Below are positions 16,430-48,902 of a DNA stretch of 64,000 nt, one piece after another (within the stretch, counting starts at the first letter, position 1; each line of letters opens with the position of its first letter). The position numbers were made by a program, and so were the translations under genes. The notes below the pieces were generated by a model, which did no database searches, was not told the DNA's origin, and saw only the letters and a program-made list of their open reading frames with translations. The DNA comes from Mnemiopsis leidyi (lineage: Eukaryota): the NCBI GenBank assembly GCA_048537945.1, contig CM108484.1, positions 4,210,494-4,274,493 on the forward strand. Direction: 5' to 3'.

Positions 16430-17008
16430 TCAGAACTGCTTGTTTTTGTCAAAGAATTCATTAAAATTCGATTCGCACCAATCGGGTCCATACATGCTTT
16501 GAGCCATCAGTAATGAGAATTTGAGTACACCTTTCATTGCACTGTAGGAGGAACTGAAATCTAATTGCCCAACCTTACGAAATTCATTCCACAGCCTAGA
16601 CGATTTGTACAGAAACTGATTAGATGGGGAAGGTGTAATAAGCAAGTTGTCCTTCCTGTTTGAAACATTAAATAAATAATACAAAGAGACTGGTTTCCGT
16701 GACTTGATAATTTTGAACAATTCCATTAAACAACGGTACCTATATAGATTTTCAACAGCTAGGATATCGTGCTTGGCGAATAGAGGTTTGGTAGATTCTT
16801 GTGTATAAAATTCAGTACCTAAACGTTGAGACTTAATTGGTCTCGCTCTAGCACATGTTCTGTACTTGTCAGTGAAGCTTTCACAGTCGCCAAAGAGGAT
16901 TCTTACACATTTTTTCTGAGTGATAAAGAGTGATTTAAGCTGGTTGCTAGAGATTCCGCCCCAAACAGATATAGAAAAACCTAAGTGAGATTCAAAAAGG
17001 GACGACAA
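16430..17008 (-). mobile_element. 5'-truncated LINE fragment (RT C-terminal domain only)
   Basis: The 192-aa ORF aligns to the C-terminal region of the 1241-aa LINE ORF (LFESHLGFSISVWGG... vs LIFNSFVQSHINYCSLVWGF...). Confidence 0.6.
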
Positions 17009-17435: not shown

Positions 17436-17771
17436 TTACACAAGTTTTTGTTGGAAATGTGGTGACTGGTGGGGATACTTGTAATTCAACATTGATCGTA
17501 GATATCGTCTATGATCAATGTCCAGCTTTTCCAACACTGGAGCAGCCCAGCAACTAGAATTGTACATTAGGACAGAAACTACCAGAGCATCATACAACAG
17601 TAGCCGCTTGTTCAGAGGGATGCTATGATTCCAAGCTTCCTTGTACTTGTTTAACGCAGCATATCCCAGACTGATCCTTCTAGAGATGTCCTTCATACTA
17701 CAAAGCATGGAGCCAAGCGTAATACTCTTTCTCCAAAGCTCGTTACCTGCAATCGGTTCTAATCTTTCCAT
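17436..17771 (-). mobile_element. Second truncated LINE RT-C-terminal fragment (different copy or family)
   Basis: KRLLLYDALVVSVLMYNSSCWAAP parallels the same ORF2 region as the fragment above. Confidence 0.5.
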
Positions 17772-18952: not shown

Positions 18953-21831
18953 ATGGCTGCAGTATTAGATGACAACATTTTTGAAAACATTTTCTCAGAA
19001 GCTAAGAAATGTGAAGAGGATGGATATCTAGAGGAAGCACTATCATTGTATAAGAATGCTCACCAGCTTCATCAATCTGACAGTTCTAAATTTGCTATTG
19101 ACCGACTCACTGATTTGTTAAATTCTAAATTGGTCAATAGTTTCCATGATAATTTGAATCTCCAAGCTTCTCCTCATTTCCAATCGACTCCCTACAACAC
19201 CCAAGGAGATAACTTAGCCATGAATGGACCATCAACTTACAATATGTCCACTACAACTCCATTAAAATCGGCCTTAGATCACATCAAAAGCCTTGATATA
19301 AGTGCCATTAATCAGTCCAGTAACATGACTATAGCAGTGCAGGAGGGTGAGAAATCATTTGATGCTGGAAAGTACAACAAGCTTATTGTTGAGGCTCGGT
19401 CTCTTTATAAAAGTGGAAATGAACTTCAAAAGGCTTTAGAAAAATATGAAGAGGCGTATTCCTTGCATGAAGATGCAAAATTGCTAAAAAGGATTGTTAA
19501 AATTCAGCAGGAACTCAAATTAAAGCAGGTTGAAACATATGTAGACACAAATGCCCTTAAAAACAAATCTGATAAAGAAGATCAGATTGATCAGTATAAC
19601 AACTTTGTCATTAATGCCAAAGCTTGTATGGAATCAGGAAGCCCAGATGAAGCCCTTCAGCTTTATCAAGAAGCCTACAAAATTGATCCATCTGAAAGAC
19701 TTAAAAAGAAAATCGACAAGTTACTCGAAACATTAGCCCAGTCAGCAGGGGATGAAAGTATAGATGTTGAACATTACAACAAACTAATCATGGATGCAAA
19801 AGTGAAGCTTAAGGAAGAGGACTACCAAGGAGCATTATTGTTGTATGAGAATGCTCATGAGTTAAATCCGAATGAGAAGTTGCAAAAGAGAATTGATAAG
19901 ATTAAGGACTTCATTGAAAATGATGTTGAGGATGATAATGAAGAAAATCAGGATGAACAAACAACTCCAACGAATAATCTTAGTCCTTCTAATGACAAAA
20001 ATTGGAACAAATCCATGATGCAATCAGAAGTTGATGAACAGTGTAAAGGCCTCATTGAGGATGCTAAAAGATGGGAGAAAACTAATAAGATAAGTGAAGC
20101 ACTTGATGCTTATAGAGAAGCCCAGAGTTTAAAACCCTGTCCTTACTTTGTTCAGAAGATTACTGATCTTGAAAAAAAACTTGACATTAATGAAAATGAT
20201 GGTGATGATGGTGAATCTGAATTAAATGTTGAGCATTATAATCAGCTTATTATCAAGGGAAGAGAGCATCTTAATGATGATAATATGGATAAAGCTCTAA
20301 AACTGTATGAAGAAGCCTATGAGATCAATCCTTCAGAAAAGCTTTCCAAAAGAATATCTAAAATAAAGAACAAGTTGTCTGAACTTAATAATGGTGAAGA
20401 AGCTGGTGTGGATGAGGAAGTTAAAGAATTTTATGACGCTACCATTGCCGATGCCAAGATAAAAGAAGACAAGCTTTTGTATGACGAGGCAATTGCATTG
20501 TATGAAGAAGCAAATGAGCTCATTCCCAGCGATAGCTTGTCTAGAAAAATTGCTAATCTTGAATTCAAAAGGGACTCTGACAAAGACGCTGAATCTCAGA
20601 AACCTAGTTCAGTGCAAAGTCTCGATGATCTGTCTGCATTTGAGAAAGCAAAGTACAACGAATTAATTGTCAAGGGGAAATATGCGCAGAAAGAATCTAA
20701 GATCGAAAAAGCATTGGGTTATTATAAAAAAGCTGCTCAGATTTACAAAAATGAAAAGCTTGGTACTCGAATTCAAAAGTTGGAAAAGTTTCTTGAGGAG
20801 GAAGCAGAGAATGAAAATCTTTACACAGATATTGGTGATGGCCTCTTTCTAACTAACGATGTCCATGACAAATTGTATCAGTATCAAAGAGAGGGTGTGA
20901 AGTGGATGTGGGAGCTGTATCGAGCTGAACATGGAGGAATTCTTGGAGATGATATGGGCCTGGGCAAAACGATCCAAACAATTGTTTACTTGCAAGCTTT
21001 ATTCCTCATGGAAGAGATATCTACAGCAATGCTGTGCATGCCACTCTCACTTATCAACAACTGGCAAGAGGAATTCAAGAAATGGGCTCCTGAAATTAGA
21101 GTGGAACTTTTCCATGGATCCAAGGCTGAGCGGGAAAGGAATGTTAAGAAGGTTATTAAGCGAGGAGGTGTCATACTGACAACATATGGGATTATCGAGA
21201 AAAATGTTGAGTTCCTGGTGAATACTTCATTTAAGTGGGATTATCTCGTATTGGATGAGGGACACAAAATCAAAAATCCAACAAAGACCAGTAAAGCTAT
21301 GAGGAATGTCCCCTGTAATCATCGTCTTCTTATTTCTGGAACTCCTATCCAGAATAACCTAAAAGAACTTTGGGCATTATTTGATTTTGTCTCGCGAGGT
21401 AAGCTATTGGGAACCATGACAACCTTCAAGATGAATTACATAACACCCATCGAAAGAGGTCGTGAAAAAGATGCTTCAAAGGCAGAGGCTAAGCTTGGTG
21501 CAAAACTTGCAGAGAATCTCAGAAAATTGATAGATCCCTTCTTTTTGCGTCGAACAAAAGCAGAAATCAAGTCCAAAAACACTGACAGTGCTTCTGCTTT
21601 TAGCAAACTAGGGAAGAAGAATGAGCTGTGTGTATGGCTACAGCTTTCTGATGTACAACTCAACCTGTACAAAGCTTTTCTTACCCTTGACTCTGTCCGC
21701 GATGCCATGAATTCTTCAAAATCTCCTCTCGCTGCCCTAACTGTTCTCAAGAAAATTTGTGATCATCCACGCCTGGCTATCAAGTTTGAAGCTCTAAGAG
21801 AAGTCATGGATGCCGACAATATGAGCATGAA
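18953..21831 (+). CDS. ERCC6L: PICH exon 1: 8 tandem TPR-like repeats plus SNF2 N-terminal ATPase lobe
   Basis: ATG at 18953 and donor AA|gtgagt at 21832. About 640 aa of ~45-aa repeats (YN.LI..A......Y..AL.LYEEA.EL.P.EKL.KRI.KI), then [16 protein letters not shown]... Confidence 0.85.
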
Positions 21832-24800
21832 GTGAGTTGTTTCCCTATTTGTCTAATTTGAGTTTCAGAATAATTACATATTAGGGAAAGGGTAGTTTGG
21901 TTAATGTGTTTTGCCCATTGCGCTATAATTTATGCCATAAATCTAAACGGTGCTCCTATTTGTATTTCCATTGTTCTTTGTTTATTCATCACCACATCTC
22001 CCTAAAAACTTTCTTTAACACTTGTCATGCTTTCAGACCTGACGATCACCAAAAACTACTGTCAACAGTGGAGCTCCCTAAAGATCCAGCAGATGAAATT
22101 TTGTTGAGGGAAAGTTGCAAATTGAAGTTTGCCCTAGAGCTGTTGGATCATCTCCATGCTGATGGTCATAGAACACTTTTATTCTCAACCTCCCTTAAGA
22201 TTCTCAATTACATCCAATCAATGATAGCTGACAAGGTATGTCAAAAATTGAGCCTTAGTACGTTAAATTTTGACATTATAATGAAATGTCCAATGATTCT
22301 GAACAGCCGTTTTTGAATGGCCTTCTAAATTTAGTTAACCAAGCGGCACAGTACGTGCAGTATTTATTTAACAGTTTAAGGGCTTTTGACTCGCTTTTGA
22401 GCGATCATTATCTCAAAATATTCGTTGATTATACCCAACCCCCCCCCTTCCCCCTCTTTGGGCATCTTCCTCCACCCCAGCTGCCTATCTATATTTTGCA
22501 CCTAAACTGGCATAACCTTACGGCTTACATAGATCTAATAACAGGGGTTGAAATGTTTGAGGATAGACGGTTCTATAAACAGGCCAGGAGAAAGACAGGA
22601 GATTATTGATAAGTTTAACACTGACATGAGGTACAGTGTACTACTTCTTACCACGCAAGTTGGTGGTGTCGGGCTAAATCTTACATCTGCAAACAGAGTC
22701 ATCATCTGTAAGTTTTCAATACTGTAAGATATAGATACTGTTTTTACATATGATACCAACTCTCGGTTGTCATTGTGTTTGAGCAAATTAAAAGGAGGAC
22801 CAGCTATGAAATTATTTTTAAAATTTCAGATGATCCGAACTGGAACCCAGCAACAGATGCTCAAGCAGTGGACAGATCCTACAGGATAGGACAAACAAAG
22901 CCCGTAATTGTATATCGGTTGTTAACTAGTGGGACTATAGAGGAGAAGATATACAGGAAGCAGGTGTTCAAAGATAGCATCACCAGACAGGCTACTGGAG
23001 AGTCGTTCGATCCTATCAGGTGTGGAAATAATTACTTGTCTTTGTGATAGAGGAAGTACTCAATAAGGTTTCTCACTTTACCATGATCATCTTATTAACT
23101 CTACAAATGACAAGCCACAGTGTTGGCTGAGTAACTGATATATCTCACCCTTCTTCAAATATGTACAAGTACAGAAATACAAATACACTAATACAACTAC
23201 ACAAATACACTTTCTGTTCAGGTACTTCACAAACCAGGAGATATCCCAACTGTTCGAGTTAGGAAGTACTTCTACCAGTGAAACATGCGATCAGCTAGAA
23301 CAACTGCACGGTGCAGACAGAAACCATTCAGAGCAAGTACGGACCGACTTGGCTGCAATCTCTGGAATGGGTTAGTTTATTTCAATTCGGATATCAGATA
23401 TTTGATTATTTGGGTGTGCTTTTTTTCTCGGTGCCATATTGGTACAACATTTTTGAATTAAAATGTGCACCACATTGGTTGTCTTATTGTTTTACCTATA
23501 ACCTACTGTTACAGGCGCTATTGGATGTAGCGATCACGATCTTCTGTTTTCTCATGAAGAGGTTGTGGATAACACCCCTGAAGAGCGCCAGTTTGTTGAA
23601 GAAAGGGTAAGTTTTCTGCAAATCATTACTGGGAACGTACCTGTTGCATGTTATGCCAGACCTTTTTCGTTACACTGTAGAAAATAAACCAAATTTTCAC
23701 TGCCAAGCTATACCAGTGTGTAAACGCAGGTCCTTTCTTTACATGCTTAGATGTTTTATGTAACGCGCGAACGCCAAACAAAAAACCCATGAACGTGCCT
23801 TCGCACGCGCGAAATTTAAAATTGATATATTGATTGAGGCGCGCCCGGCATAATATATTGCAATGCAGCACATGACATGACATGTGATCAAAATTAAATT
23901 CGATCATAGGATCTAAGCCAAAATGTGATTTAAATCAAAATGTTGATATAAATATATAATCTAGTCTATCAATTTCATGTTTCTATCAGTTTATTTATTT
24001 GACATGATTCTTCTAATTCTGTCCAATATTATAAATTTGTGAACATTTTCAGGTCCAACAAGCTAAGAGAAACCTAGCTGCGGAAACAGCTGCAGGTCCA
24101 TCCCCCTTCCCTAATTACACAGTGCCGCCCCGCAATAACCCTGCTGCTACTGCAGTACCACTCAGTGGGGGCATGAGAGCGCCTTGGGAACCAACCAGGG
24201 GACACAGTCTGTGGAACAACAAGGAAAATGAGGTTGAAACTGTCCGCAAAGATGTAGAGAGGGTTGAGATAAGAGAGTCTCCTTACTTTCAATCTCCAAT
24301 GAAGGGCAAGTTAACTGAGGTTATTACAATAGAGGACGACATGGACGAGGAAAAAGAGGAAGAAGCAGAACAAAGAAAGAAGTTGTCGTTGTCAGACTAC
24401 AAGAAGAGACAGATGAAGATATTCGACTATGTGGACAGTCCAACTCGACAGCCTAGAGAGACTACTTCATCCAGCCCCGTCTTCGTCAGCCCTGTTCGAC
24501 CTAGGAACGTTGTTAAGAAAAACGTTGTCACACCCAGGAAATCACTCAGTAACCCAGTCGGACAAATAATAGCTAATCACATCCTTAACACTCCCAAGAA
24601 GAACGACCCTGACAGCGATGACGAGGTTCAGGACGATCTAGAAAGTTCTAGATACGACAATCTGAACAAACCGCCCTGTCTGGACGAGTCTGAGGACGAG
24701 GAGGATTACTATGAGGCGCGGGAAGAATCTGAAGAGACGGGAGAGAGATCAGCTGAAGAGGATGCGGACAATGGGGACCAAAGTGAGGAAGAGGAGGATG

Positions 24801-25889
24801 AGGAAGAAGTAGAGGTGGTGGAAGTAGAGGAAAAACCTGAAAAAGTAGACGATCTTGCTGGTTTGGTGAAAAGTTTCAAGTTTGAATCTCCCAAAAGCAG
24901 CGATCAGGCAGCTAATCAAGGGGTCGAGAAAACTACAGAGATACGCAAGGGGCTTGAGCCTAAAAACTTGCTGACAGAGAGACTCCAGACTCACGCCAAT
25001 GATTCTGAAGTTAAGACTCCAAATATCCACGAGTTCGGGCAGCAAACCGGAAATGCTCAGTTGCAGAAGACAGAGAATAAAGCTTCTGTGAGAAGAACAA
25101 GTCCAGGGAATGATAAGGAAAACAGAAATCCAGATTCATCTCCTTCTTCTAACACAGGTTTCAAGTCAAGCTGAAATTTAAACAAAATTTAAGAATTTGG
25201 ATATGTGGACCAGTTTACTTTTGTTATAACTGTTTTTGACGAAGAATATTAAGCATAAGCAATTTTAGGTTCCGTATAAAGAATATTTGACCTCTGCGTT
25301 TCCATAACCTAGCACATTTTCTTTCCCCAGGAGGCTGCACGTGCGGCAGACTACAGGCCGCAGTAAAGAAGGGTTACAAAGTCACCAAGTGTAAATGCAT
25401 GTGTAGTTCTTCAGAAGAGGACAAGTATAATCGATACCTTGAACGTGGACTGTAAGTTTTTCACAGATTCCGGAATAATTATAATTTTACGTTACCCCGA
25501 ACCACATTTTTATCGGAAGTTTTATTAGTTTTTACTTATCTATACAATTAAAAGGCAAATATTTTGTACTTTTGGTAATTAAATTAAAAGAATGTATTTC
25601 TTACTGGATGCACCCTGCATCACATGAGCAGCTTCTTATATTGATAAATTATTTAGTCTAGAATTATATTGTGATGCAAAATGTTCTAATTACAATTACA
25701 ATTAAATACAACATTCGAAAATTTTCGCAATATCGTTATTTCAACATAACCCACTGCAGAGAGCACCACAAGGCAGGAAACACTGGGAAAGCTCTTCAGT
25801 ACTACAAGGCTGCATTGCAGTACAGAAACGATGACACGACCGTTCAGAAGGCGTATCTTACTCTGAAGAAGCAGCAGAAGAACAAATAA
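18953..25889 (+). CDS. ERCC6L: ERCC6L/PICH-type SNF2-family DNA translocase gene, complete, 9 exons
   Basis: Strong colinear similarity to PICH through the ATPase domain ([68 protein letters not shown]) and the helicase C-terminal domain ([57 protein letters not shown]). N-terminal and C-terminal TPR-like motifs as in PICH. Confidence 0.85.
22037..22235 (+). CDS. ERCC6L: PICH exon 2
   Basis: Acceptor tttcag|A and donor AAG|gtatgt. [67 protein letters not shown] matches the PICH linker and start of helicase-C. Confidence 0.8.
22545..22707 (+). CDS. ERCC6L: PICH exon 3 (helicase C)
   Basis: [54 protein letters not shown](C/Y). Acceptor aacag|GGG and donor T|gtaagt. Confidence 0.8.
22830..23019 (+). 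CDS. ERCC6L: PICH exon 4 (helicase C motifs V-VI)
   Basis: [64 protein letters not shown]. Confidence 0.85.
23222..23370 (+). CDS. ERCC6L: PICH exon 5
   Basis: [50 protein letters not shown] with splice sites in phase. Confidence 0.7.
23515..23606 (+). CDS. ERCC6L: PICH exon 6
   Basis: [31 protein letters not shown] matches PICH GIAGISDHDLMY...QQRVQKAQF. Confidence 0.7.
24053..25157 (+). CDS. ERCC6L: PICH exon 7: long acidic/Ser-rich low-complexity region
   Basis: Acceptor ttttcag|GTC CAA ([11 protein letters not shown]...). Inferred donor aacacag|gtttca at 25157/25158 so the frame joins the next exon. Otherwise the ORF stops at 25174. Confidence 0.55.
25331..25451 (+). CDS. ERCC6L: PICH exon 8
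   Basis: ccccag|GAGGCT...GGACT|gtaagt. The frame gives ...[22 protein letters not shown] and joins the terminal TPR exon. Confidence 0.5.
25583..25705. repeat. ~130-bp repeat copy B inside the last PICH intron
   Basis: Matches 18758-18892. Confidence 0.8.
25760..25889 (+). CDS. ERCC6L: PICH exon 9: C-terminal TPR-like motif and stop
   Basis: [43 protein letters not shown] resembles the PICH C-terminal TPR (GKIQEALNCLVKALDIK...) and the N-terminal repeats of exon 1. Confidence 0.6.
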
Positions 25890-37981: not shown

Positions 37982-40900
37982 GTACGTCAGTTTTTCTGTC
38001 TGTAGATTTGTCTGTTCATTTATCTGTAAATCTGTCCGTAAATCTGTCCGTGAATATGTCTGTTTGTCAGCCTATATTATTTGCTATAGGTTTGTATAAG
38101 TTTGCCTGTTCGTCGGTTTTTCTGGAGAACTTATTTGTTTTATATGATCTTTGGGAGTCAGTTCCTTCACTGAGCCAACAGTGGAATTGCAAAATTCAAA
38201 CTCTGAAAAACCTGACAATCTCCATCACTGCATCAACCTCAGGTTCCGACATGATAACTTCTGAACCTAGAAGGTGGCCCGCTGGAATATTCGGACTGCC
38301 AGAAAGAGCCGGTCTTCTTCACGACATTTCCTCCTTCGACTCCTCCTTCTTCGGAGTTAGCGCCAAACAGGGACATCAGATGGATCCTCAACTTAGAGTC
38401 TTGCTAGAAGTTGCTTACGAGGCTATCCTTGATTCGGGTAATTACGCGAGTTCTCAAAAATTAGGACGTTGCCACTAAATTCTTTCTCCTTCTATTACTA
38501 CAAACTACAAGTGCTCACTGCTCGAAAAGAATTGTAAAGCTATAAATTTGAACACAACTACGTCTGGGGAAGCAATAAGTGTGAATTATAACGAATATAC
38601 CAATAATACCCCGACAGGATACCACCCAAGTGAGTTGAAAGGGAAGAAGATAGGAGTGTACGTGGGGGGTTCCTCCTCCGAGGCGTACGACGCTTGGACC
38701 ACTGACGCAGACAGTCAGACGGGGTACGGACTGCTGGGGTGCTGTAGGTGCATGTTGGCAAACAGAGTAGCCTTCACTTTCGACTTCAGAGGACCCAGCT
38801 ACACGCTAGATACTGCATGCAGCAGCTCCATGTTCGCTCTAGATGCTGCTCACAAGAGTGTGATGCTGGGAGAGTGTGACATGGCCCTGGTGGCGGGGGT
38901 GAACCTCCTTCTCAAACCTAACTGTTCCCTCGACTTTCATAGACTCTCCATGTTGTCACAAGATGGGTCTTGCAAGGTTGGTGGAGTCACCTTAAAACTT
39001 TAAAATTGAATTTGTAGATCTGAATCCGTGCATTAGTTGTTATCTGTATCAATCAGTAACTATGTATAGTAATTATAGTAACTATGTATATTAAGGTACA
39101 TATATATATTCACCCTCCATATATGGGTATATATATACACATTTGTCAGGTGTTTGATGAAGGAGCTAACGGTTACGTAAGAGCAGAGACAGTAGCTGCA
39201 GTAATGTTATGTAGAGAGAATCTCGCAAGGAGAGCGTACGCGAGGATACTGGGTACTCGGACCAATACTGACGGGTATGATCTCTTCTGGTGATTCTCGG
39301 TTTAACCGTATCAAATTTAATGGGAGCACTAATCAAGTCTTCCACGTTTTGGGGAAAGATTATTTGGGGAGGGGTTGCAAATTTGACAGAATTGGTTGCG
39401 GAGGAGGGCTCTCAAATCACATGTAAGAAGCGGGAGAAGTAATGATTAATATGGAATATCAGATTTCTGAAAATCTATTAAGGGGTCAGAAATTGGTGAA
39501 ACCCAGCCTCAATATCTCCAGGTACAAGACCGAGGGTATAACATACCCCAACCACGAGATACAAAGCGAACTGCTCAAGGATCTGTATCAGACTGCAGGG
39601 GTATCGCCTGATGATGTGTACTATTTGGAGATGCATGGGACCGGGACACAGGTACTATAGATTTACAGTGGGACACAGGTACTATAGATTTACTGTGGGA
39701 CACAGGTACTATAGATTTACTGTGGGACACAGGTACTATAGATTTACAGTGGGACACAGGTACTATAGATTTACAGTGAGACACAGGAACTATAGATTTA
39801 CAGTGAGACACAGGTACTATAGATTTACAGTGGGACACAGGTACTATAGATTTACTTTGGGACACAGGTACTATAGATTTACTGTGGGACAGAGGTACTA
39901 TAGATTTACTGTGGGACACAGGTACTATAGATTTACTGTGGGACACAGGTACTATAGATTTACAGTGGGACACAGGTACTATAGATTTACAGTGGGACAC
40001 AGGTACTATAGATTTACTTTGGGACACAGGTACTATAGATTTACTGTGGGACACAGGTACTATAGATTTACTTTGGGACACAGGTACTATAGATTTACTG
40101 TGGGACACAGGTGGTATAGATTTACTTTGGGACACAGGTACTTTAGATTTACTGTGGGACACAGGTACTATAGATTTACTGTGGGACACAGGTACTATAT
40201 ATTTACTGTGGGACACAGGTAGTATAGATTTACTGTGGGACACAGGTACTATAGATTTACAGTGGGACACAGGTACTATAGATTTACTGTGGGACACAGG
40301 TACTATAGATTTACTGTGGGACACAGGTACTATAGATTTACAGTGGGACACAGGTACTATAGATTTACAGTGAGACACAGGAACTATAGATTTACAGTGA
40401 GACACAGGTACTATAGATTTACAGTGGGACACAGGTACTATAGATTTACTTTGGGACACAGGTACTATAGATTTACTGTGGGACAGAGGTACTATAGATT
40501 TACTGTGGGACACAGGTACTATAGATTTACTGTGGGACACAGGTACTATAGATTTACAGTGGGACACAGGTACTATAGATTTACAGTGGGACACAGGTAC
40601 TATAGATTTACTTTGGGACACAGGTACTATAGATTTACTGTGGGACACAGGTACTATAGATTTACTTTGGGACACAGGTACTATAGATTTACTGTGGGAC
40701 ACAGGTGGTATAGATTTACTTTGGGACACAGGTACTTTAGATTTACTGTGGGACACAGGTACTATAGATTTACTGTGGGACACAGGTACTATATATTTAC
40801 TGTGGGACACAGGTAGTATAGATTTACTGTGGGACACAGGTACTATAGATTTACTGTGGGACACAGGTACTATATATTTACTGTGGGACACAGGTAGTAT

Positions 40901-43900
40901 AGATTTACTGTGGGACACAGGTACTATCGATTTACTGTGGGACACAGGTACTATAGATTTACAGTGGGACACAGGTACTATAGATTTACAGTGGGACACA
41001 GGTACTATAGATTTACTTTGGGACACAGGTACTATAGATTTACTGTGGGACACAGGTACTATAGATTTACTTTGGGACACAGGTACTATAGATTTACTGT
41101 GGGACACAGGTGGTATAGATTTACTTTGGGACACAGGTACTTTAGATTTACTGTGGGACACAGGTACTATAGATTTACTGTGGGACACAGGTACTATAGA
41201 TTTACAGTGAGACACAGGAACTATAGATTTACAGTGGGACACAGGTACTATAGATTTACTGTGGGACACAGGTACTATAGATTTACTGTGGGACACAGGT
41301 ACTATCGATTTACTGTGGGACACAGGTACTATAGATTTACTGTGGGACACAGGTACTATAGATTTACAGTGGGACACAGGTACTATAGATTTACAGTGGG
41401 ACACAGGTACTATAGATTTACTGTGGGACACAGGTACTATAGATTTACAGTGGGACACAGGTACTATAGATTTACAGTGGGACACAGGTACTATAGATTT
41501 ACTTTGGGACACAGGTACTATAGATTTACTGTGGGACACAGGTACTATAGATTTACTTTGGGACACAGGTACTATAGATTTACTGTGGGACACAGGTGGT
41601 ATAGATTTACTTTGGGACACAGGTACTTTAGATTTACTGTGGGACACAGGTACTATAGATTTACTGTGGGACACAGGTACTATATATTTACTGTGGGACA
41701 CAGGTAGTATAGATTTACTGTGGGACACAGGTACTATAGATTTACTGTGGGACACAGGTACTATAGATATACTGTGGGACACAGGTAGTATAGATTTACT
41801 GTGGGACACAGGTACTATAGATTTACTGTGGGACACAGGTACTATCGATTTACTGTGGGACACAGGTACTATAGATTTACTGTGGGACACAGGTACTATA
41901 GATTTACCGTGGTTTTACCGTGGTAACTTTCCTTAAGTAAATGCCTGACTCACAAACGTCAAAGCCAAAAATCGTATTAAAAAGAAAAAAAAGAAACAAC
42001 CAGCTCAAATCACATCCCCAGGCTGGAGACACACAAGAGATGATGGGGGTTGAGAAATACTTCCTGAAGGGGGGCACCCGCCCCAAACCCCTCTACGTGG
42101 GAAGTGTGAAGAGTAACATTGGGCACAGTGAGCCGAGTAGCGGGGTAGCCGCTCTCACCAAGATACTTCTCTCTTATCACTACAAGAAGATACCTGCCAA
42201 CATCAACTTTAATAAACCAAATCCTAAGGTTTGTTTTTGCAAACTTTATTTTATCTATTCGTTGCTAAATCTTCTTTTTTGAAAAAATAACCGTACAGTT
42301 CTAAATTTAAAACTTATTGTTTTTATATTGCGGGAGAAAAATCTCCCTAGCAAATTGTAGAGTGACAAATAGCGTTTACTGTACGGTCCAGAAACACAGT
42401 TGATATCTGGGTTGAGGTTATCCGTTATTCTCACTTTTTTCTTTGACTTGTAGCAACTGATATACAGTGTCTGCAGTTGCGGGTTTTGGTCGAATATGTG
42501 AAAGAATTAGTGAGCGCTTAAACAGATTGAATGGAGTATAAACCCTATTGCATCTGTTTTCTTCACTTCTCAAGTTCTTAGTGTTAGTCCATCATTAGGC
42601 TCGCTTCCACGTCGTCCATGTAGTACCCGTATCTCCGTATTTAACATCTAGCTGATTTTGATTTAGGTCTTCAAAATTTCAAGATTTACTCACTATCTGC
42701 GAAGACCTCAACCTCTGCCAATGATAAAACTGACGTACCACCCTGTATTTGAATACTTGATCCTTTAACTGTCAGATCAGAGAAATCATAAAGATAGGTT
42801 CCTGACTGGTACGTTATCGTGCCGATAAGCTCCGCCCCATCGTAGTTTCCTCCTGTTAAGCCAACTCCCACCCAGATCTTTACTCCGTTTATTCTTTGGG
42901 GTGCATCATATCTGTTGTACACCTGAAAGTTGGAAGCCACTACACAATGTTTATAATCATTTATTGTCTATTTCAGCAGCATAAGTTGGTTCTGCTGTAC
43001 CAATTTTCACCTGCGATAAAGGTATAAATTACTCAACGCTCTTCCTCAAATTCGCATTTTTTCGTAAAACATTTTCTTCTCGAAATTCTAGTGTTGAAGG
43101 CGACGAAATATTTAATGATCGAGTCTCTTACCGTAATTTGACAAATAGCACAAACTCTCGGCAGTGTTAGCAGCCACCAGGCTGCCGGTCCTCCAGTGAT
43201 TGTATGGCTGAAGTCAAATTCGTAATGCCTGTGAGTGTTCAAAATTATGATTTTGCCGTTTGCTTGATTTTAAGGTGCCTTTTCGGTAAATAATGTTAAT
43301 GAAAATAGCTGGAAGCAAATATGTAATCCTAGGTGGTTGCTCGATGATGCTACGTAATAATCATTTCGGGCCGGAATTCGTGGATGACTGGCTTAATCGC
43401 TAATGTTTAGATTTTAAAATAAATCGAATTTCTTGAAATCAGAATCAAACTGGAGTACCTTCCATGTTTTATTCCGTCGATAGCTCTGGCAGCACTTAAG
43501 GATATGTTCTTAATGGGATCAACATACGTGTCAGTTTGTGTTGCAGTGCCTTCACGAGCAATGTTTTTCTCGGTACAAGAAGCGTTTACTCTTCCTGCAT
43601 AGATCAAATCTTAGTTTTCCAGATATTGTCATCCAAATTTTGTTTAAAATCTAGACCCAAGTTTGACTACTACTATTGCTACTACCACTATGCGTTTAGC
43701 CTGGTGAACCTAATGGAAATCCTTGCTGTACGGCATGTTAAACAAGGAATGGAGCTAAGAAGTTCCATGCAGTCCAATCTTTAGTGCAACCTTAACATTG
43801 TAGATATGTTATCATTTTGATTGCATAGCTCACCTTGAAGACCGAGGAAGAGTAGTATCAAAAGTTTATACATTGTAAAATCAGGATTATCCATTTTTCC

Positions 43901-46900
43901 TCAAACAGGGGCTATGAGATGTGTATGTAACTTTCTTTCATTTCAGTTTGATAGTTATTATTATCAAACAAAAATTTTTATATAATTAGCTGGATTCAAA
44001 TTATTGGCAGGATTCAATGCACTCAGAAATAAAACACAATGTGTAAGATGGTGTGGCCATCAATACACTGAACTAAGACTAAAACACAATGAGTAAGATG
44101 GTGTGGTCATCAATACACTGAACTAAGACTAAAACAAAATGTGTAAGATGGTGTGGTCATCAATACACTGAACTAAGACTCAAACAAAATGTGTAAGATG
44201 GTGTGGCCATCAATACACTGAACAAAGACTAAAACACGATGTGTAAGATGGTGTGGTCATAAAGGCATTGCACTAAGAAACAAAGCAAAATGTGTAAGAT
44301 CATGTATAAACAATGCACTGTACCGATTAAGTGTTCGCACTTAACCTGATTCTCCGGCACACCGTGTTATAAATGCTTTGTTCCCATTTTAAAGTGGATA
44401 ATGATATGGAGAGAGCGGGAGAAGGACCGAGGGTCAGAGAGAAAGAGGGGAAGAAAGACAGAGGGACTGTAGGACAGAGCGAAAGATGGTCAGATGAACA
44501 AAGGGAAAGGGAGACTGATTGACAGACTGACAGAGGAAGACAGAAGGGGATGACGTAGGTAGTCATCTACGCACTACAAAGCGATAAGTAGGCCGTACAG
44601 AAAAATAGAGAAATTGAAATTGAAACTCATAGCCGACGCTTGAAGGCACTATTTGGAGCCCCAAGGTAAATTCCTTATCATCGGAATCACGATCGGAGAG
44701 CATGAAACAACAATTTAAAGTTCATAATATTGCAACTTTTTCTATTATAGATCACATGACTTTGGCTTTAGATCAAATGACTGATGGTGGTAGCAATTGC
44801 TTTAGATTACTGGACTCTTTTTCGGGACCTAAACTCGGCGCTTCCTCTTTTGAATACACTGGTCGAGTACCGTCAGAAAATTGATTTCATATCTAAGGTA
44901 AGGTATCAGGTAATTCTTCCTAGATCCTGTGTTATCGGTTGTAATCCTTGGCCGAACGCAAATAAGCTTATTTCTGGGTCAGCCAGGTGGAGAGAGCGCT
45001 GTTTTCACTCTCAACATCCAGATCGAGATGTTAGAGATTCGTCTCTGAAGTATCTGACCTGTCTTATCATACCCTTCTGGTGAGTCACTCAAATCAGGGA
45101 ATTTCAAAGGGTCACTCACCTTTATCAGTAAATGGTACATATACTTCAACTTCTGCTAAACTTAGATAATCCGCGCCACCTTGAATTTGAACACTGGATC
45201 CACTAGCGTGGAGGTTAGAGAAGACATATGGGTTGGTTCCTGACTGGTACGTTATCGTGCCGATAAGCTCCGCCCCATCGTAGTTTCCTCCTGTTAAGCC
45301 AACTCCCACCCAGATCTTTACTCCGCTTAATCTTTGGGGTTGTAAGATTCTGTTGAACACCTGAAAGTGAGATCTGTACAATATATTACGTCGTGATTCG
45401 TTATTACCATTAATTAATGGTCACATACTGAATGTCTGACGCTGTTTCTTTGTTTGTATTGGACGTGGTTATAGTTGGAGGATGGAGGGGGAGGGACGTG
45501 GTAATAGTTGGAGGATGGAGGGGAGGGACGTGGTAACAGTTGGAGCATGGAGGGAGGAAGGAGGTGGTAATAGTTGCAGGATGGAAGGGGAGGGACGTGG
45601 TAATAGTTGGAGGATGGAGGAGGAAGGAGGGGGTTATAGTTGGAAAATGGAGGGAGGAAGGAGGTGGTAATAATTTGAGGACTGAGGGGGTGGGAGGTGG
45701 TAATAGTTGGAGGATGGAAGAGGAAGGAGGTGGTAATAGTTGGAGGATTAGAGGGGGTGGGAGGTGGTAATAGTTGGAGCATGGAGGGGGAGGGACGTGG
45801 TAATAGTTGGAAGATGAAGGGAGGAAGGAGGTGGTAATAGTTGGAGGATGGAAGGGGAAGGATGTGGTAATAGTTGGAAGATGGAGGGAGAGGGAGGAGG
45901 AAAGTGGTAATAGACGCAGGATGGAGGGAGGAAGGAGGTGGTTATAGTTGGAGCATGGAGGGAGGAAGGAGGTGGTAATAATTTGAGGACTGAGGGGGTG
46001 GGAGGTGGTAATAGTTGGAGGATGGAGGAGGAAGGAGGTGGTAATAGTTGGAGGATAGAGGGGGTGGGAGGTGGTAATAGTTGGAGCATGGAGGGGGAGG
46101 GAGGTGGTAATAGTTGGAGCATGGAGGGAGAGGGAGGTGGTAATATTTGAAAGATGGAGGGAGGAGGAAAGTGGTAATAGACGCAGGATGGAGGGAGGAA
46201 GGAGGTGGTTATAGTTGGAGCATGGAGGGAGGAAGGAAGTGGTAATAATTGGAGGACTGAGGGGGTGGGAGGTGGTAATAGTTGGAGGATGCAGGAGGAA
46301 GGAGGTGGTAATAGTTGGGGGATAGAGGGGGTTGGAGGTGGCATTAGTTGGAGGATAGAGGGGGTGGGAGGTGGTAATAGTTGGAGCATGGAGGGGGAGG
46401 GAGGTGGTAATAGTTGGAGCATGGAGGGAGAGGGAGGTGGTAATATTTGGAAGATGGAGGGAGGAGGAAAGTGGTAATAGACGCAGGATGGAGGGAGGAA
46501 GGAGGTGGTTATAGTTGGAGCATGGAGGGAGGAAGGAAGTGGTAATAATTGGAGGACTGAGGGGGTGGGAGGTGGTAATAGTTGGAGGATGCAGGAGGAA
46601 GGAGGTGGTAATAGTTGGGGGATAGAGGGGGTTGGAGGTGGCATTAGTTGGAGGATAGAGGGGGTGGGAGGTGTTAATAGTTGGAGCATGGAGGGGGTGG
46701 GAGGTGGTAATAGTTGGAGCATGGAGGGAGGAGGAACGTGGTAATAGTTGGAGGTGGATGGGGAAGGAGGTGGACAGGTGGTTATAGTTGGAGGATGGAG
46801 GATAGAGGGGGCGTGGTAATAGTTGGAGGATGGAGGGAGGAAGGTGGTGTTATGGTTGGAGGATAGAGGGGGTGGGAGGTGGTAATAGTTGGAGGATGGA

Positions 46901-48902
46901 AGCGGAGGGACGTGGTTATAGTTGGAGCACGGAGGGGGGAGGGACGTGGTAATAGTTGGAAGATAGATGGAGGAAGGAGGTGGTAATAGTTGGAGGATAG
47001 AGGGGGAAGGACGTGGTAATAGTTGGAGGATGGAGGGGGAAGGACGTGGTCATAGTTGGAGGATGGAGGGGGAGGGACGTGGTAATAGTTGGAGGATAGA
47101 GGGGGTGGGAGGTGGTAATAGTTGGACGATAGAGGGGGTGGGAGGTGGTAATAGTTGAAAGACGGAGGGAGGAGGAACGTGGTAATAGTTGCAGGATGGA
47201 GGGTGGAAGGAGGTGGTTATAGTTGAAGGATGGAGGGGGCGTGGTAATAGTTGCAGGATGGAGGGGGACGGACGTGGTAATAGTTGGACGATGGAGGGAG
47301 GAAGGTGGTGTTATAGTTGGCGGATGGAGGGGGAAGGACGTGGTAATAGTTGGTGGATGGAGGGGGAAGGACGTGGTAATAGTTGGAGGATGGAGGGGGA
47401 AAGACGTGGTCATAGTTGGAGGATGGAGGGGGAGGGACGTGGTAATAGTTGGAGTATAGAGAGGGAGGGACGTGGTTATAGTTGGAGGATGGAGGGGGAG
47501 GGACGTGGTAATGGTTGGAGGATTGCGGGGAGGGAGGTGGTAATAGTTGGAAGATGGAAGCGGAGGGACGTGGTAATAGTTGGATGATGGATGGAGGAAG
47601 GAGGTGGTAATAGTTGGAGGATAGAGGGGGTGGGAGGTGGTAATAGTTGGAGCATGGAGGGGGAGGGACGTGGTACTAATAGTTGGAGGATAGATGGAGG
47701 AAGGAGGTGGTAATAGTTAGAGGATGGAAGGGGAAGGAAATGGTAATAGTTGGAGGATGGAGGAGGGGAGAGGTGGTTATAGTTGGAGGATGGAGGAGGA
47801 AGGAGGTGGTAATAGTTGGAGGATTGAGGGGAGGGACATGGTAATAGTTTGAGGATGGAAGGGCAGGGAAGTGGTAATAGTTGGAGCATGGAGGGAGGAA
47901 TGAGGTGGTAATAGTTGGAGCATGGAGGGAGGAATGAGGTGGTAATATTTGGAGGATGGAAGGTGAGGGACGTGGTAATAGCTGGAGGATGGAGGAGGAA
48001 GGAGGGGGTTATAGTTGGAGCATAGGGGAGGGAAGGAGGTGGTAATAATTTGAGGACTGAGGGGGTGGGAGGTGGTAATAGTTGGAGGATAGAGGATTAG
48101 AGGAGGTGGGAGGCGGTAATAGCTGGAGGATGGAGAGGGAAGAAGGTGATAATGGTTGGTGGATGGAGGGAGGAAGGAGGTGGTTATATTTAGAGGATGG
48201 AGGAGGAACTGAAGAAGGGAGCATGGAGTATGTGTGGAGGGAGTGTGATTAACCGGCTGGAGGTCAGGGCCCATGCTACCTAGCTAGATATCATGGATAT
48301 AAGGGATTAAGGGATGCTCATTTACAATACAACCTTTTCGCTTCGTCAAATTCGCTGGGTTGGCATAGATTTTCGTTTTTTTGTCTTGATTTGGGAGTTT
48401 TTGTTTTGTTTTTTGTGCTATTGTGTCTAGGAAGAAGTTGATACGAGACTCCTAAAAAGTTTTAAAGAACGGATAAACAAAAAAAATCGCGACACCAAAA
48501 TTGTTGGTTTGGTATTGGTTTACTGGTAAACGACCCCCATGAGTTTTTGCTACTCTTCAATAAAATTCTATTTTGTACCTTAATTTGACGGATAGGGTAA
48601 ACTGTCGGTAGTGTGAGTAGCCACCAAGCAGTTGATCCTGTCGTTTTTGTATGGGTAAAATCCACTTCTCCATTTATATCTCTGAGACAATTGGATGCTT
48701 TACTTTCAGCCGATTTAAACTCAACAGACCGATTTTGCTAAAGGCATTGATGAAGGTTAACGATTAGCGATTGAAATTAATTGCCATAGCAGTTAGAAAT
48801 GTTCGCTTTTTATTTGACCGGCTCACAGATTTACCTATGCTATATAAAAAATACAAATCGTAATGAAGTCAAAATTATCTTTCATACTATTATTATTAAC
48901 CT

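What the first reader, a model, noticed from the sequence alone, without database searches (positions are those of the whole stretch)
18953..25889. PICH/ERCC6L ortholog with an 8-fold expanded N-terminal TPR-like repeat array in one giant first exon
The SNF2 core aligns colinearly with PICH (ERCC6L) rather than CSB (for example [27 protein letters not shown]). Human PICH has a single N-terminal TPR-like helix pair before the ATPase and one at the C-terminus. Here the first exon encodes about 640 aa made of 8 tandem ~45-aa copies of that motif (YN.LI.DAK......Y..AL.LYEEA.EL.P.EKL.KRI.KI), and the C-terminal copy is on its own final exon. In vertebrate PICH the TPR region is the partner-binding module (for example BEND3), so an 8-mer array implies a multivalent or altered interaction surface. 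The gene structure is also atypical: a 2.9-kb intronless 5' exon followed by 8 small exons.
Basis: partly seen in the sequence, partly recalled or inferred. Interest (0 to 1): 0.65.

Follow-up and report, generated by a model that had tools for sequence, protein, structure and literature searches.

The report
Comb-jelly PICH helicase with eight TPR modules
This is the comb jelly (Mnemiopsis leidyi) version of PICH/ERCC6L, a mitotic DNA motor, and it carries eight copies of the small N-terminal docking module that other animals have once, an old expansion shared by related comb jellies whose function is untested.

Summary
Window 18953-25889 (+) encodes a 9-exon, 1675-aa protein. All junctions are GT/AG, and the 3' splice sites are conserved in a related comb jelly. 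The window is Mnemiopsis leidyi; GenBank's model is a truncated 1250-aa "hypothetical protein".

The ATPase core plus PICH-family domain matches ERCC6L/PICH from corals, molluscs, chelicerates, tunicates and vertebrates (43-50% identity, 98-99% coverage, about 600-650 bits). CSB scores only 344 bits.

Exon 1 (2879 bp) encodes eight ~49-aa three-helix units, and a ninth sits at the C-terminus. A profile built only from the single N-TPRs of other animals finds all eight units (14-53 bits, against at most 4.3 bits in shuffles). A ctenophore-only unit profile matches the human PICH N-TPR crystal chain (5JNO_B) at 40.7 bits.

AlphaFold2 predicts eight confident units joined by disordered acidic linkers, so the array looks like beads on a string and not a TPR solenoid.

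Five ctenophore-clade relatives have eight units and two have seven, in matching order where divergence allows this to be read. The other animal orthologs sampled have at most one N-terminal unit, except Schistosoma with three.

Corrections: the C-terminal unit is split across exons 8 and 9, exon 7 is 1.1 kb, and the units are spaced, not contiguous. Multivalent partner docking is plausible but untested.

The parts
18953..21831 (+). Exon 1 (2879 bp, aa 1-960). It contains the start codon, the eight-unit N-TPR array and the SNF2 N-lobe. The donor is ATGAA|GTGAGT.
   Evidence: ORF. GenBank model mapped. The start MAA.LDD is conserved in P0002-P0005. An in-frame TAG lies four codons upstream.
18980..19126 (+). 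N-TPR unit 1 (aa 10-58). It is the most divergent unit: Phe replaces the conserved Tyr, and there is no P-S/N-E-K loop.
   Evidence: It scores 23.7 bits with the non-ctenophore N-TPR profile. AF2 helices are 2-22, 26-39 and 43-71.
19373..19519 (+). N-TPR unit 2 (aa 141-189).
   Evidence: It scores 33.2 bits. AF2 helices are 138-154, 158-171 and 175 onward.
19595..19741 (+). N-TPR unit 3 (aa 215-263). It carries YN...PSER.
   Evidence: It scores 50.7 bits. The best Pfam TPR_2 stretch is aa 222-247.
19775..19921 (+). N-TPR unit 4 (aa 275-324). It carries HYNKLI...[13 protein letters not shown] and is the closest unit to the human N-TPR.
   Evidence: phmmer alignment to 5JNO_B. It scores 47.5 bits. 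The single-unit AF2 model has pLDDT 95.9.
20045..20191 (+). N-TPR unit 5 (aa 364-411). It is divergent: Cys replaces Tyr, and the loop reads PCPY.
   Evidence: It scores 15.9 bits.
20237..20383 (+). N-TPR unit 6 (aa 429-477). It carries YN...PSEK and is the unit closest to the consensus.
   Evidence: It scores 53.4 bits.
20432..20578 (+). N-TPR unit 7 (aa 494-543).
   Evidence: It scores 14.3 bits.
20654..20803 (+). N-TPR unit 8 (aa 568-617). It lies directly before the ATPase.
   Evidence: It scores 45.3 bits. It is the clearest positional ortholog in every relative.
20882..21775 (+). SNF2 ATPase N-lobe (aa 644-941). It contains motif I (GDDMGLGKT) and motif II (LDEGH).
   Evidence: Pfam SNF2-rel_dom, E 4.9e-70. 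Nearly invariant columns in the PICH alignment.
22037..22235 (+). Exon 2 (199 bp). It starts the helicase C-lobe.
   Evidence: Conserved in L001.
22545..22707 (+). Exon 3 (163 bp). Helicase C-lobe.
   Evidence: 89% DNA identity to L001, with the alignment ending near the exon boundaries.
22830..23019 (+). Exon 4 (190 bp). Helicase C-lobe, including motif VI ([11 protein letters not shown]).
23222..23370 (+). Exon 5 (149 bp). It starts the PICH-family domain (RYFTNQE...).
23515..23606 (+). Exon 6 (92 bp). It ends the PICH-family domain with SDHDLLFS. The donor is AGG|GTAAGT. The GenBank model reads through this donor to a stop at 23685-23687.
24053..25157 (+). Exon 7 (1105 bp, aa 1225-1593). 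A polar, acidic, low-complexity linker region. It contains S-[ST]-P motifs at aa 1364 and 1586 and SIM-like motifs at aa 1314 and 1477.
   Evidence: The long ORF is conserved in four other assemblies at 62-79% identity. The donor G|GT is conserved in L001.
25331..25451 (+). Exon 8 (121 bp). It encodes a Cys-rich stretch ([28 protein letters not shown]) and then helix A of the C-terminal unit (from 25426).
   Evidence: The acceptor and donor are conserved and the protein is 92.7% identical in L001, while intron 7 has diverged.
25760..25889 (+). Exon 9 (130 bp). It encodes helices B and C of the C-terminal TPR unit and the TAA stop.
   Evidence: The DNA alignment to L001 begins within 3 bp of the acceptor and ends within 2 bp of the stop codon's last base. 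The same C-terminus occurs in the ctenophore protein P0030.

Best explanation
**Shown.** This is the Mnemiopsis leidyi ortholog of PICH/ERCC6L. It has an SNF2-type ATPase with intact motifs I, II and VI, followed by the PICH-family domain, a long disordered acidic region and a C-terminal TPR unit. The N-terminus carries eight copies of the PICH N-TPR module where other animals have one. Each copy is about 49 aa and is predicted with high confidence to form its own three-helix unit (TPR helices A and B plus a capping helix). Flexible, mostly acidic or polar linkers of 11-82 aa separate the copies. The units are better conserved than the linkers. Their number and order are largely kept across the ctenophore-clade sequences found, so the expansion is old and under selection.

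**Inferred.** The motor works as in vertebrates, as a dsDNA translocase acting on mitotic DNA such as ultrafine bridges. The array most likely acts as a multivalent docking platform. In human PICH, Tyr21 and the P-N-E-K loop (Asn53, Glu54) of the N-TPR contact the BD1 domain of BEND3. The equivalents of these residues are among the best conserved positions in the ctenophore units. Several units could therefore bind the same kind of partner. This would recruit many partner copies per translocase, or hold an oligomeric partner with high avidity, and so tune ATPase activity or factor loading on DNA.
For: **Identity.**
- A 100% match to a GenBank M. leidyi protein.
- Core plus PICH-family domain matches ERCC6L orthologs at 43-50% identity and 98-99% coverage. 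CSB scores 344 bits.

**Units.**
- Alignment of the nine copies.
- The non-circular profile test and shuffles.
- 5JNO_B is the best PDB hit.
- Pfam TPR_2 is above its cutoff.

**Architecture.**
- AF2 gives pLDDT 85-93 in the units and below 50 in the linkers, with pTM 0.20.
- A single unit gives pLDDT 95.9 and superposes on TPR and MIT three-helix folds.
- The whole array matches TPR proteins only locally, at TM about 0.1.

**Selection.**
- Units are 43-89% identical across relatives and linkers 20-73%.
- Each unit has its best match at the same position in the closer relatives tested (P0005, P0006), but only five of eight do in the most divergent one.
- There is no DNA-level repeat.

**Distribution.**
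- Eight units in five ctenophore-clade sequences, including a divergent TARA scaffold whose ATPase is 75-78% identical to the ctenophore clade and 50-59% identical to other animals.
- Seven units in two others.
- At most one N-terminal unit elsewhere, except three in Schistosoma.

**Function of the module in humans.** PMC5737856 reports a three-helix bundle that binds BEND3 BD1. Tyr21, Asn53 and Glu54 make contacts, and mutating Glu11, Leu13 and Tyr21 abolishes stimulation of the ATPase by BEND3.
Against: - No expression or cDNA evidence was available. The gene model rests on splice consensus and comparative conservation.
- No partner is known in ctenophores, and I could not test whether a BEND3-like protein exists there.
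- PMC5737856 itself says that the conserved N-TPR residues are mostly structural, so conservation of Y and P-S/N-E-K may reflect folding and not ligand binding.
- Units 1, 5 and 7 lack parts of this signature.
- In human cells both TPRs are dispensable for UFB resolution and viability (PMC11797016), so the module's role may be accessory.
- One ctenophore-clade contig (L004) shows only two units upstream of the ATPase, with a LINE element just upstream.
- The beads-on-a-string picture is a prediction from only 8 aligned sequences.
Confidence: 0.75

Rival explanations
1. The array is an intramolecular or self-association device and not a partner-docking platform. The units would fold back on the ATPase, the PICH-family domain or the C-terminal TPR unit to gate translocase activity. 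Alternatively, they would link PICH molecules to each other so that they coat DNA cooperatively.
For: A ninth unit of the same family sits at the C-terminus of the same protein. The linkers are flexible and long enough to reach the motor. In human PICH, BEND3 acts through the N-TPR to change ATPase activity, so the module is coupled to the motor (PMC5737856).
Against: AF2 shows no confident contacts between units (pTM 0.20), although the ATPase was not in that model. Human PICH is reported to be largely monomeric (PMC5737856). Nothing here tests either binding mode.
Confidence: 0.17
2. The array is a largely neutral lineage-specific repeat expansion with no function beyond that of a single N-TPR.
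For: Domain-repeat number commonly drifts. Schistosoma has three units and one ctenophore-clade lineage has seven. L004 shows two. The TPRs are dispensable for the core function in human cells (PMC11797016).
Against: Eight units are retained in the same order between sequences whose arrays are only about 30% identical overall. Units are conserved much more than linkers and have almost no indels. No unit has decayed to the point of being unrecognisable.
Confidence: 0.05
3. The long protein is an artefact. Either two adjacent genes (a TPR protein and an SNF2 ATPase) have been joined in silico, or the locus is a pseudogene or an assembly error.
For: The GenBank model for this gene is wrong at its 3' end. 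No transcript evidence was obtained.
Against: The array and the ATPase N-lobe lie in one uninterrupted 960-aa ORF here, and in comparable ORFs of 920-960 aa in six independent assemblies. In the divergent TARA scaffold the array is followed, after a short intron, by the ATPase on the same strand. All catalytic motifs are intact.
Confidence: 0.02
4. The ATPase belongs to another SNF2 subfamily (CSB/ERCC6, ERCC6L2 or RAD54) that independently acquired TPR units.
For: CSB and Rad26 are the closest solved structures. No tree with reference sequences of all subfamilies was built.
Against: Named ERCC6L orthologs score about 540-650 bits over 98-99% of the query, including the PICH-family domain and the SDHDL motif. 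CSB scores 344 bits without that region. The TPR unit is specifically of the PICH N-TPR type. A C-terminal TPR is present, as in PICH.
Confidence: 0.01

Closest known systems
Human and vertebrate PICH (ERCC6L, PLK1-interacting checkpoint helicase)
   Same: The order of parts is the same: N-TPR, SNF2 ATPase, helicase C-lobe, PICH-family domain with SDHDL, a long disordered acidic region, then a C-terminal TPR. The core is 43-50% identical to the non-ctenophore orthologs, vertebrates included. The unit has the same three-helix fold type as the crystallised N-TPR, and the Tyr21 and P-N-E-K equivalents are kept in most units (PMC5737856).
   Different: It has eight N-terminal units instead of one, which adds about 560 aa. 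The protein is 1675 aa, against 1250 aa for human PICH (residue numbering in PMC8565832). The PLK1-docking Thr1063 site and the SIMs are not alignable, and only candidate motifs are present. The known partner BEND3 is described for vertebrates, and whether ctenophores have one is unknown.
PICH orthologs of non-bilaterian and invertebrate animals (corals Montipora and Desmophyllum, sponge Sycon, Limulus, bivalves, tunicates)
   Same: The same ERCC6L core and PICH-family domain. Most carry one N-terminal unit of the same family, and several also have a detectable C-terminal unit.
   Different: They are about 940-1075 aa with a single N-TPR. None of the non-ctenophore orthologs scanned has more than one N-terminal unit, except Schistosoma mekongi with three.
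Canonical TPR solenoid proteins (OGT, Hop/Sti1, P58IPK, consensus CTPR proteins)
   Same: Helices A and B of each unit match the TPR consensus at profile positions 10-32. Local structural matches have rmsd 0.4-1.6 Å.
   Different: TPR solenoids are contiguous 34-aa repeats that stack into a superhelix. Here each TPR has its own capping helix and is isolated by disordered linkers. Global TM-scores to solenoids are about 0.1.
MIT domain (VPS4 and similar proteins)
   Same: An isolated three-helix bundle that resembles one and a half TPRs. VPS4A MIT is the top Foldseek hit of the single unit (TMq 0.74). Pfam MIT gives a weak hit to unit 1 (E 0.0013, below the cutoff).
   Different: The match is below the Pfam threshold, and the sequence signature is that of the PICH N-TPR. 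Nothing suggests ESCRT-III binding.

Membership tests
PICH / ERCC6L subfamily of SNF2 ATPases | The SNF2 ATPase core is closer to ERCC6L than to CSB/ERCC6 or other subfamilies. | tested here: met
   Named ERCC6L orthologs match at 43-50% identity, 98-99% coverage and about 540-650 bits. CSB scores 344 bits, Rad26 334 and Mot1-like 290. No explicit tree with all subfamilies was built.
PICH / ERCC6L subfamily of SNF2 ATPases | A PICH-family domain (PFD) lies directly after the helicase C-lobe. PMC8565832 describes it as specific to PICH orthologs. | tested here: met
   Query residues about 520-616 (protein aa 1140-1235, RYFTNQE...SDHDLLFS) align only with ERCC6L orthologs. The CSB alignment stops at query residue 548. 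The consensus RYF..QEL..LF...SDHDLMFS appears in the 52-sequence alignment.
PICH / ERCC6L subfamily of SNF2 ATPases | An N-terminal TPR module of the PICH type. | tested here: met
   Eight copies are present. The non-ctenophore N-TPR profile scores them at 14.3-53.4 bits, against at most 4.3 bits in shuffles. 5JNO_B is hit at 40.7 bits by a ctenophore-only profile.
PICH / ERCC6L subfamily of SNF2 ATPases | A C-terminal TPR module. | tested here: met
   aa 1625-1670 scores 57 bits with the Mnemiopsis unit profile, which is partly circular. It scores 10 bits with non-ctenophore N- and C-TPR profiles, against at most 5.3 bits in shuffles. It is conserved in L001 and in P0030.
PICH / ERCC6L subfamily of SNF2 ATPases | A CDK1-primed Polo-box docking site (human Thr1063) and binding to PLK1. 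| tested here: inconclusive
   S-[ST]-P motifs occur at aa 78, 1364 and 1586. The region is not alignable with the vertebrate sequence, and binding cannot be tested here.
PICH / ERCC6L subfamily of SNF2 ATPases | dsDNA translocase activity and localisation to ultrafine anaphase bridges and centromeres. | not testable with these tools
   Only the intact catalytic motifs can be shown: [14 protein letters not shown] and [11 protein letters not shown].
PICH / ERCC6L subfamily of SNF2 ATPases | The N-TPR binds the BD1 domain of BEND3. | not testable with these tools
   Equivalents of the contact residues Tyr21, Asn53 and Glu54 are conserved in most units (PMC5737856). Whether ctenophores have BEND3 could not be searched.
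Tetratricopeptide repeat (TPR) proteins | A 34-aa helix-turn-helix matching the TPR consensus. | tested here: met
   Pfam TPR_2 scores 58.2 bits (cutoff 27), TPR_1 42.8 (27.8) and TPR_14 43.3 (23.5). The unit profile aligns to consensus CTPR repeats at positions 10-32. Helix pairs are predicted in every unit.
Tetratricopeptide repeat (TPR) proteins | Adjacent repeats stack into a continuous superhelical solenoid. | tested here: not met
   By prediction only. The units are separated by linkers of 11-82 aa with pLDDT below 50, and pTM is 0.20. TM-scores to TPR solenoids are about 0.1.

The most novel reading that the evidence does not exclude
The eight N-TPR units are a valency-matched receptor for an oligomeric or repeated partner. 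They would let a single ctenophore PICH motor assemble a large complex on stretched mitotic DNA. As a point of comparison, human BEND3 is reported to behave as an octamer in solution (PMC5737856). If so, the N-TPR's ancestral role would be scaffold assembly and not ATPase tuning. Ctenophores would then offer a natural gain-of-valency system for finding the still poorly defined function and ancestral ligand of the PICH TPR modules.
Probability: 0.15. Interest if true: 0.65.

Novelty: new variant of a known kind. Interest (0 to 1): 0.42.

Why it matters
The motor activity of PICH is well studied, but the purpose of its TPR modules is not. In human cells they bind BEND3 and are needed for the RIF1 co-immunoprecipitation, yet they are dispensable for bridge resolution (PMC5737856, PMC8565832, PMC11797016).

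A whole animal lineage has multiplied exactly this module eightfold. It has kept the copies in the same order, where divergence allows this to be read, in sequences whose arrays are only about 30% identical. That argues the module does something selectable, and that dosage or valency matters for it.

The finding gives PICH researchers a natural high-valency variant to use as bait for partners. It also gives ctenophore genomics a corrected 1675-aa gene model in place of the truncated 1250-aa "hypothetical protein". It does not reveal a new kind of system.

Tried and rejected
1. **Whole-ORF homolog search.** I repeated the search with the ATPase core alone.

2. **Unit profile against 1.84 billion proteins.** Apart from the ctenophore PICH clusters (P0007, P0031), the top 150 are mostly long multi-repeat proteins with low scores per repeat. 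The five I checked are generic TPR proteins, three of them with PKD domains, and none has an SNF2 domain. The search is therefore not informative about PICH orthologs with two to four units, which would fall below the listed scores.

3. **C-terminal 536 aa search for spliced, transcript-derived proteins.** It returned only exon-7 ORF fragments from other assemblies plus P0030, so there is no direct evidence for the junctions.

4. **Foldseek of the single-unit model against the PDB.** 5JNO_B is not among the top 50. According to PMC5737856 its helix A is distorted in the crystal, and E-values for a 50-aa query are weak. The link to the human N-TPR therefore rests on sequence profiles.

5. **DNA-level tandem repeats.** None was found in the array, which rules out a recent duplication or an assembly artefact.

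6. **A missing unit 1 in the seven-unit lineage (L002).** No copy was found within 10 kb upstream.

7. **Taxon names.** The ENA, TARA and Logan relatives could not be named. I call them ctenophore-clade only because of their ATPase identity.

8. **Pfam on the retroelement-like ORFs upstream.** No hit.

Full report
**What is in the sequence.** Window 18953-21835 (+) is one 960-aa ORF. Pfam finds an SNF2-related domain at aa 644-941 (E 4.9e-70). Upstream of it, TPR_2, TPR_1 and TPR_14 all score above their curated cutoffs. Aligning the motif occurrences gives eight N-terminal copies of a unit of about 49 aa, at aa 10, 141, 215, 275, 364, 429, 494 and 568, plus a ninth copy at the C-terminus of the spliced protein. 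The consensus is YNxLIxxAK-(10)-ALxxYxEAxxxxPSEKLxxxIxKL. A six-frame scan of the whole 64-kb window finds exactly these eight contiguous copies and nothing else. There is no DNA-level tandem repeat in the array. The copies are therefore old and diverged, with local alignment scores of 36-119 between them.

**Organism and gene model.** The ORF is 100% identical to a GenBank protein, "hypothetical protein ACHWQZ_G011223 [Mnemiopsis leidyi]", of 1250 aa. Mapping that model onto the window shows that it uses exons 1-6. It then reads through a perfect donor (AGG|GTAAGT at 23606) into the intron and ends at 23685-23687.

| Exon | Coordinates |
|---|---|
| 1 | 18953-21831 |
| 2 | 22037-22235 |
| 3 | 22545-22707 |
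| 4 | 22830-23019 |
| 5 | 23222-23370 |
| 6 | 23515-23606 |
| 7 | 24053-25157 |
| 8 | 25331-25451 |
| 9 | 25760-25889 |

All junctions are GT/AG, and the frame is open for 1675 aa.

I could not obtain transcript evidence. Comparison with a related assembly (L001, 88% protein identity in exon 1) supports the 3' exons instead. DNA similarity starts and stops within a few bases of the predicted boundaries of exons 3-5 and 9. The exon 7 donor, both splice sites of exon 8, the exon 9 acceptor and the stop codon are all conserved. Intron 7 and the flanks have diverged, and differences inside the exons fall mostly at third codon positions. Exon 7 is also kept as a long ORF in four other assemblies at 62-79% identity. 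A ctenophore protein from EukProt (P0030) ends with the same C-terminal unit.

**Which SNF2 subfamily.** The core plus downstream region (aa 620-1235) was searched alone. After the ctenophore sequences, the named hits are overwhelmingly "DNA excision repair protein ERCC-6-like". They come from corals, Limulus, bivalves, a cuttlefish, tunicates, a starfish, fishes, amphibians, reptiles, birds and a primate, at 43-50% identity. The best of them cover 98-99% of the query and score about 540-650 bits.

Against solved structures the best match is CSB/ERCC6 at 344 bits, and that alignment ends at query residue 548. It is followed by Rad26 and Mot1-like proteins.

The last ~70 residues of the query form the PICH-family domain with the SDHDL motif. 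In these searches they align only with ERCC6L proteins, and they sit in conserved columns of a 52-sequence alignment. I did not build a tree with all subfamilies. The score gap and the PICH-specific domains make the PICH assignment secure enough for this report.

**Are the repeats PICH N-TPRs?** I used three non-circular tests.
- phmmer of residues 1-640 against all PDB sequences returns the human PICH N-TPR chain 5JNO_B as the top hit. It aligns with unit 4 ([10 protein letters not shown]...[13 protein letters not shown] against HYLRYVKEAK...PNEKVLSRIQKIQ).
- A profile made only from the single N-TPRs of 28 non-ctenophore orthologs detects all eight Mnemiopsis units at 14.3-53.4 bits. The best score in 500 shuffles of the same 640 aa is 4.3 bits.
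- A profile made only from ctenophore-clade units hits 5JNO_B at 40.7 bits in one stretch covering positions 5-45. Engineered consensus TPRs score only 14-19 bits per repeat, over positions 10-32.

The units are therefore true TPR motifs and specifically of the PICH N-TPR type. The C-terminal unit scores about 10 bits with both non-ctenophore profiles, against at most 5.3 bits in shuffles.

**Predicted architecture.** AlphaFold2 was run on residues 1-640 with an alignment of eight ctenophore-clade sequences. It predicts three helices per unit at pLDDT about 85-93, linkers below 50 and pTM 0.20. No fixed arrangement between units is predicted. A single unit modelled with the unit alignment gives pLDDT 95.9, with helices at residues 2-13, 17-30 and 34-49. 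It superposes on TPR motifs and on MIT three-helix bundles at TMq 0.6-0.84. The whole array matches TPR solenoids only locally, at TM about 0.1.

This agrees with the crystal description of the human N-TPR as a three-helix bundle (PMC5737856). The picture is eight independent mini-domains on flexible, mostly acidic or polar linkers of 11-82 aa, and not one superhelix. It remains a prediction from a shallow alignment.

**Distribution and age.** The Mnemiopsis unit HMM was run over the 52 aligned homologs plus the full-length Mnemiopsis model.

| Sequences | N-terminal units |
|---|---|
| Ctenophore-clade P0002-P0005, P0007 | 8 |
| Ctenophore-clade P0006, P0031 (unit 1 missing) | 7 |
| Non-ctenophore orthologs sampled: corals, the sponge Sycon, Limulus, molluscs, tunicates, fishes, a primate (several also have a weaker C-terminal unit) | 0-1 |
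| Schistosoma mekongi | 3 |

P0007 comes from a TARA Oceans scaffold (L003). There the eight units are followed, after a short intron, by ATPase exons that are 75-78% identical to the ctenophore clade and only 50-59% identical to other animals.

Each Mnemiopsis unit has its best match at the same position in P0005 and P0006. In P0031, five of the seven shared units do. In P0007, units 1, 2, 6, 7 and 8 do. Units are 43-89% identical across these relatives and have almost no gaps. Linkers are 20-73% identical and have up to 23% gaps. The expansion therefore predates the divergence of these lineages and is under purifying selection.

One contig (L004/P0090) has only two units before the ATPase, with a LINE element directly upstream. 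I could not tell whether this is a reduced array, a disrupted gene or a paralog.

A profile search of 1.84 billion representative proteins ranks the ctenophore PICH clusters first and third. The rest of the top list consists mostly of long multi-repeat proteins with low scores per repeat. The five that I checked are generic TPR proteins without an SNF2 domain.

**How it probably works.** The following are shown:
- an intact SNF2 motor with motifs [14 protein letters not shown] and [11 protein letters not shown];
- the PICH-family domain;
- a 390-aa acidic, disordered region with candidate Polo-box (S-[ST]-P, aa 1364 and 1586) and SUMO-interaction motifs ([15 protein letters not shown]);
- the eight N-terminal units and one C-terminal unit.

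The function is inferred from vertebrate PICH. In human PICH the N-TPR binds BD1 of BEND3 through Tyr21 and the Asn53-Glu54 loop, and mutations in this module abolish BEND3 stimulation of the ATPase (PMC5737856). Deleting the TPRs abolishes the RIF1 co-immunoprecipitation (PMC8565832). However, both TPRs are dispensable for bridge resolution and viability (PMC11797016).

In the ctenophore units, the leading Tyr and the P-S/N-E-K loop are among the most conserved positions. They correspond to human Tyr21 and Pro52-Lys55.

My best reading is a multivalent docking platform that recruits several copies of one kind of partner, or grips an oligomeric partner with avidity. The main rival is an autoregulatory or self-association role. 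Both remain untested. PMC5737856 also cautions that the conserved N-TPR residues are mostly structural.

**Novelty and verdict.** Two full-text searches found no paper that mentions PICH or ERCC6L together with ctenophores. GenBank lists the gene only as a truncated hypothetical protein. This is a clear member of a known family with an unusual domain expansion that is conserved across the ctenophore-clade sequences found. I classify it as a new variant of a known kind.

It would interest PICH specialists as a lead on the poorly understood TPR modules. It is also a useful annotation correction. Repeat-number expansion of an interaction module is a common evolutionary event, however, and no new mechanism is demonstrated. 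Interest is 0.42.

Noticed in passing
window 23515-23687: The GenBank model for this gene (hypothetical protein ACHWQZ_G011223, 1250 aa) ignores the consensus donor AGG|GTAAGT at 23606 and reads 26 codons into intron 6. It therefore lacks exons 7-9, about 450 aa that include the C-terminal TPR.
   Followed up: yes
window 45461-48207; also 40000-41912 and 44030-44300: Large minisatellites lie downstream of the gene. A G-rich 33-bp unit (GGAGGTGGTAATAGTTGGAGGATGGAGGGGGAG) has about 82 copies with a 267-bp higher-order period (GC skew 0.89). A 27-bp unit has about 71 copies, and a 50-bp unit has about 5.
   Followed up: no
L001 13636-14874 (matches window 22674-22716): In the related assembly, the 43 bp spanning the end of exon 3 and its donor site are amplified about 25-fold as a 48-bp-period minisatellite inside intron 3. 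The Mnemiopsis window has one copy.
   Followed up: no
window 25331-25425 (exon 8, aa 1593-1624): A conserved Cys-rich stretch, [28 protein letters not shown] (five Cys), sits just before the C-terminal TPR. The exon is 92.7% identical at protein level in L001, much higher than the neighbouring exon 7 at 77.5%. It might bind metal or be lipidated; this was not examined.
   Followed up: no
P0142 (Schistosoma mekongi ERCC6L ortholog), aa 10-55, 79-121, 155-194: This flatworm PICH ortholog has three N-terminal N-TPR-type units. It is a smaller expansion that appears to be independent of the ctenophore one.
   Followed up: partly
L004 5116-6585 (P0090) and L004 1359-4297: A ctenophore-clade PICH locus on a low-coverage contig has only two N-TPR units before the ATPase. 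A non-LTR retrotransposon (RVT_1 plus endonuclease, minus strand) lies immediately upstream. This could be array truncation by insertion, a paralog or an incomplete assembly.
   Followed up: partly
window 16430-17008 (-) and 17436-17771 (-): Two minus-strand ORFs just upstream of the gene look by eye like the C-terminal parts of a non-LTR retrotransposon reverse transcriptase. Pfam gave no hit at E <= 0.01.
   Followed up: partly
L003 3968-4717: In the most divergent eight-unit relative (the TARA scaffold), introns separate the array from the ATPase and also split the N-lobe after GDDMG and after EFEKW. The intronless 2.9-kb first exon of Mnemiopsis is therefore not universal in the clade.
   Followed up: partly
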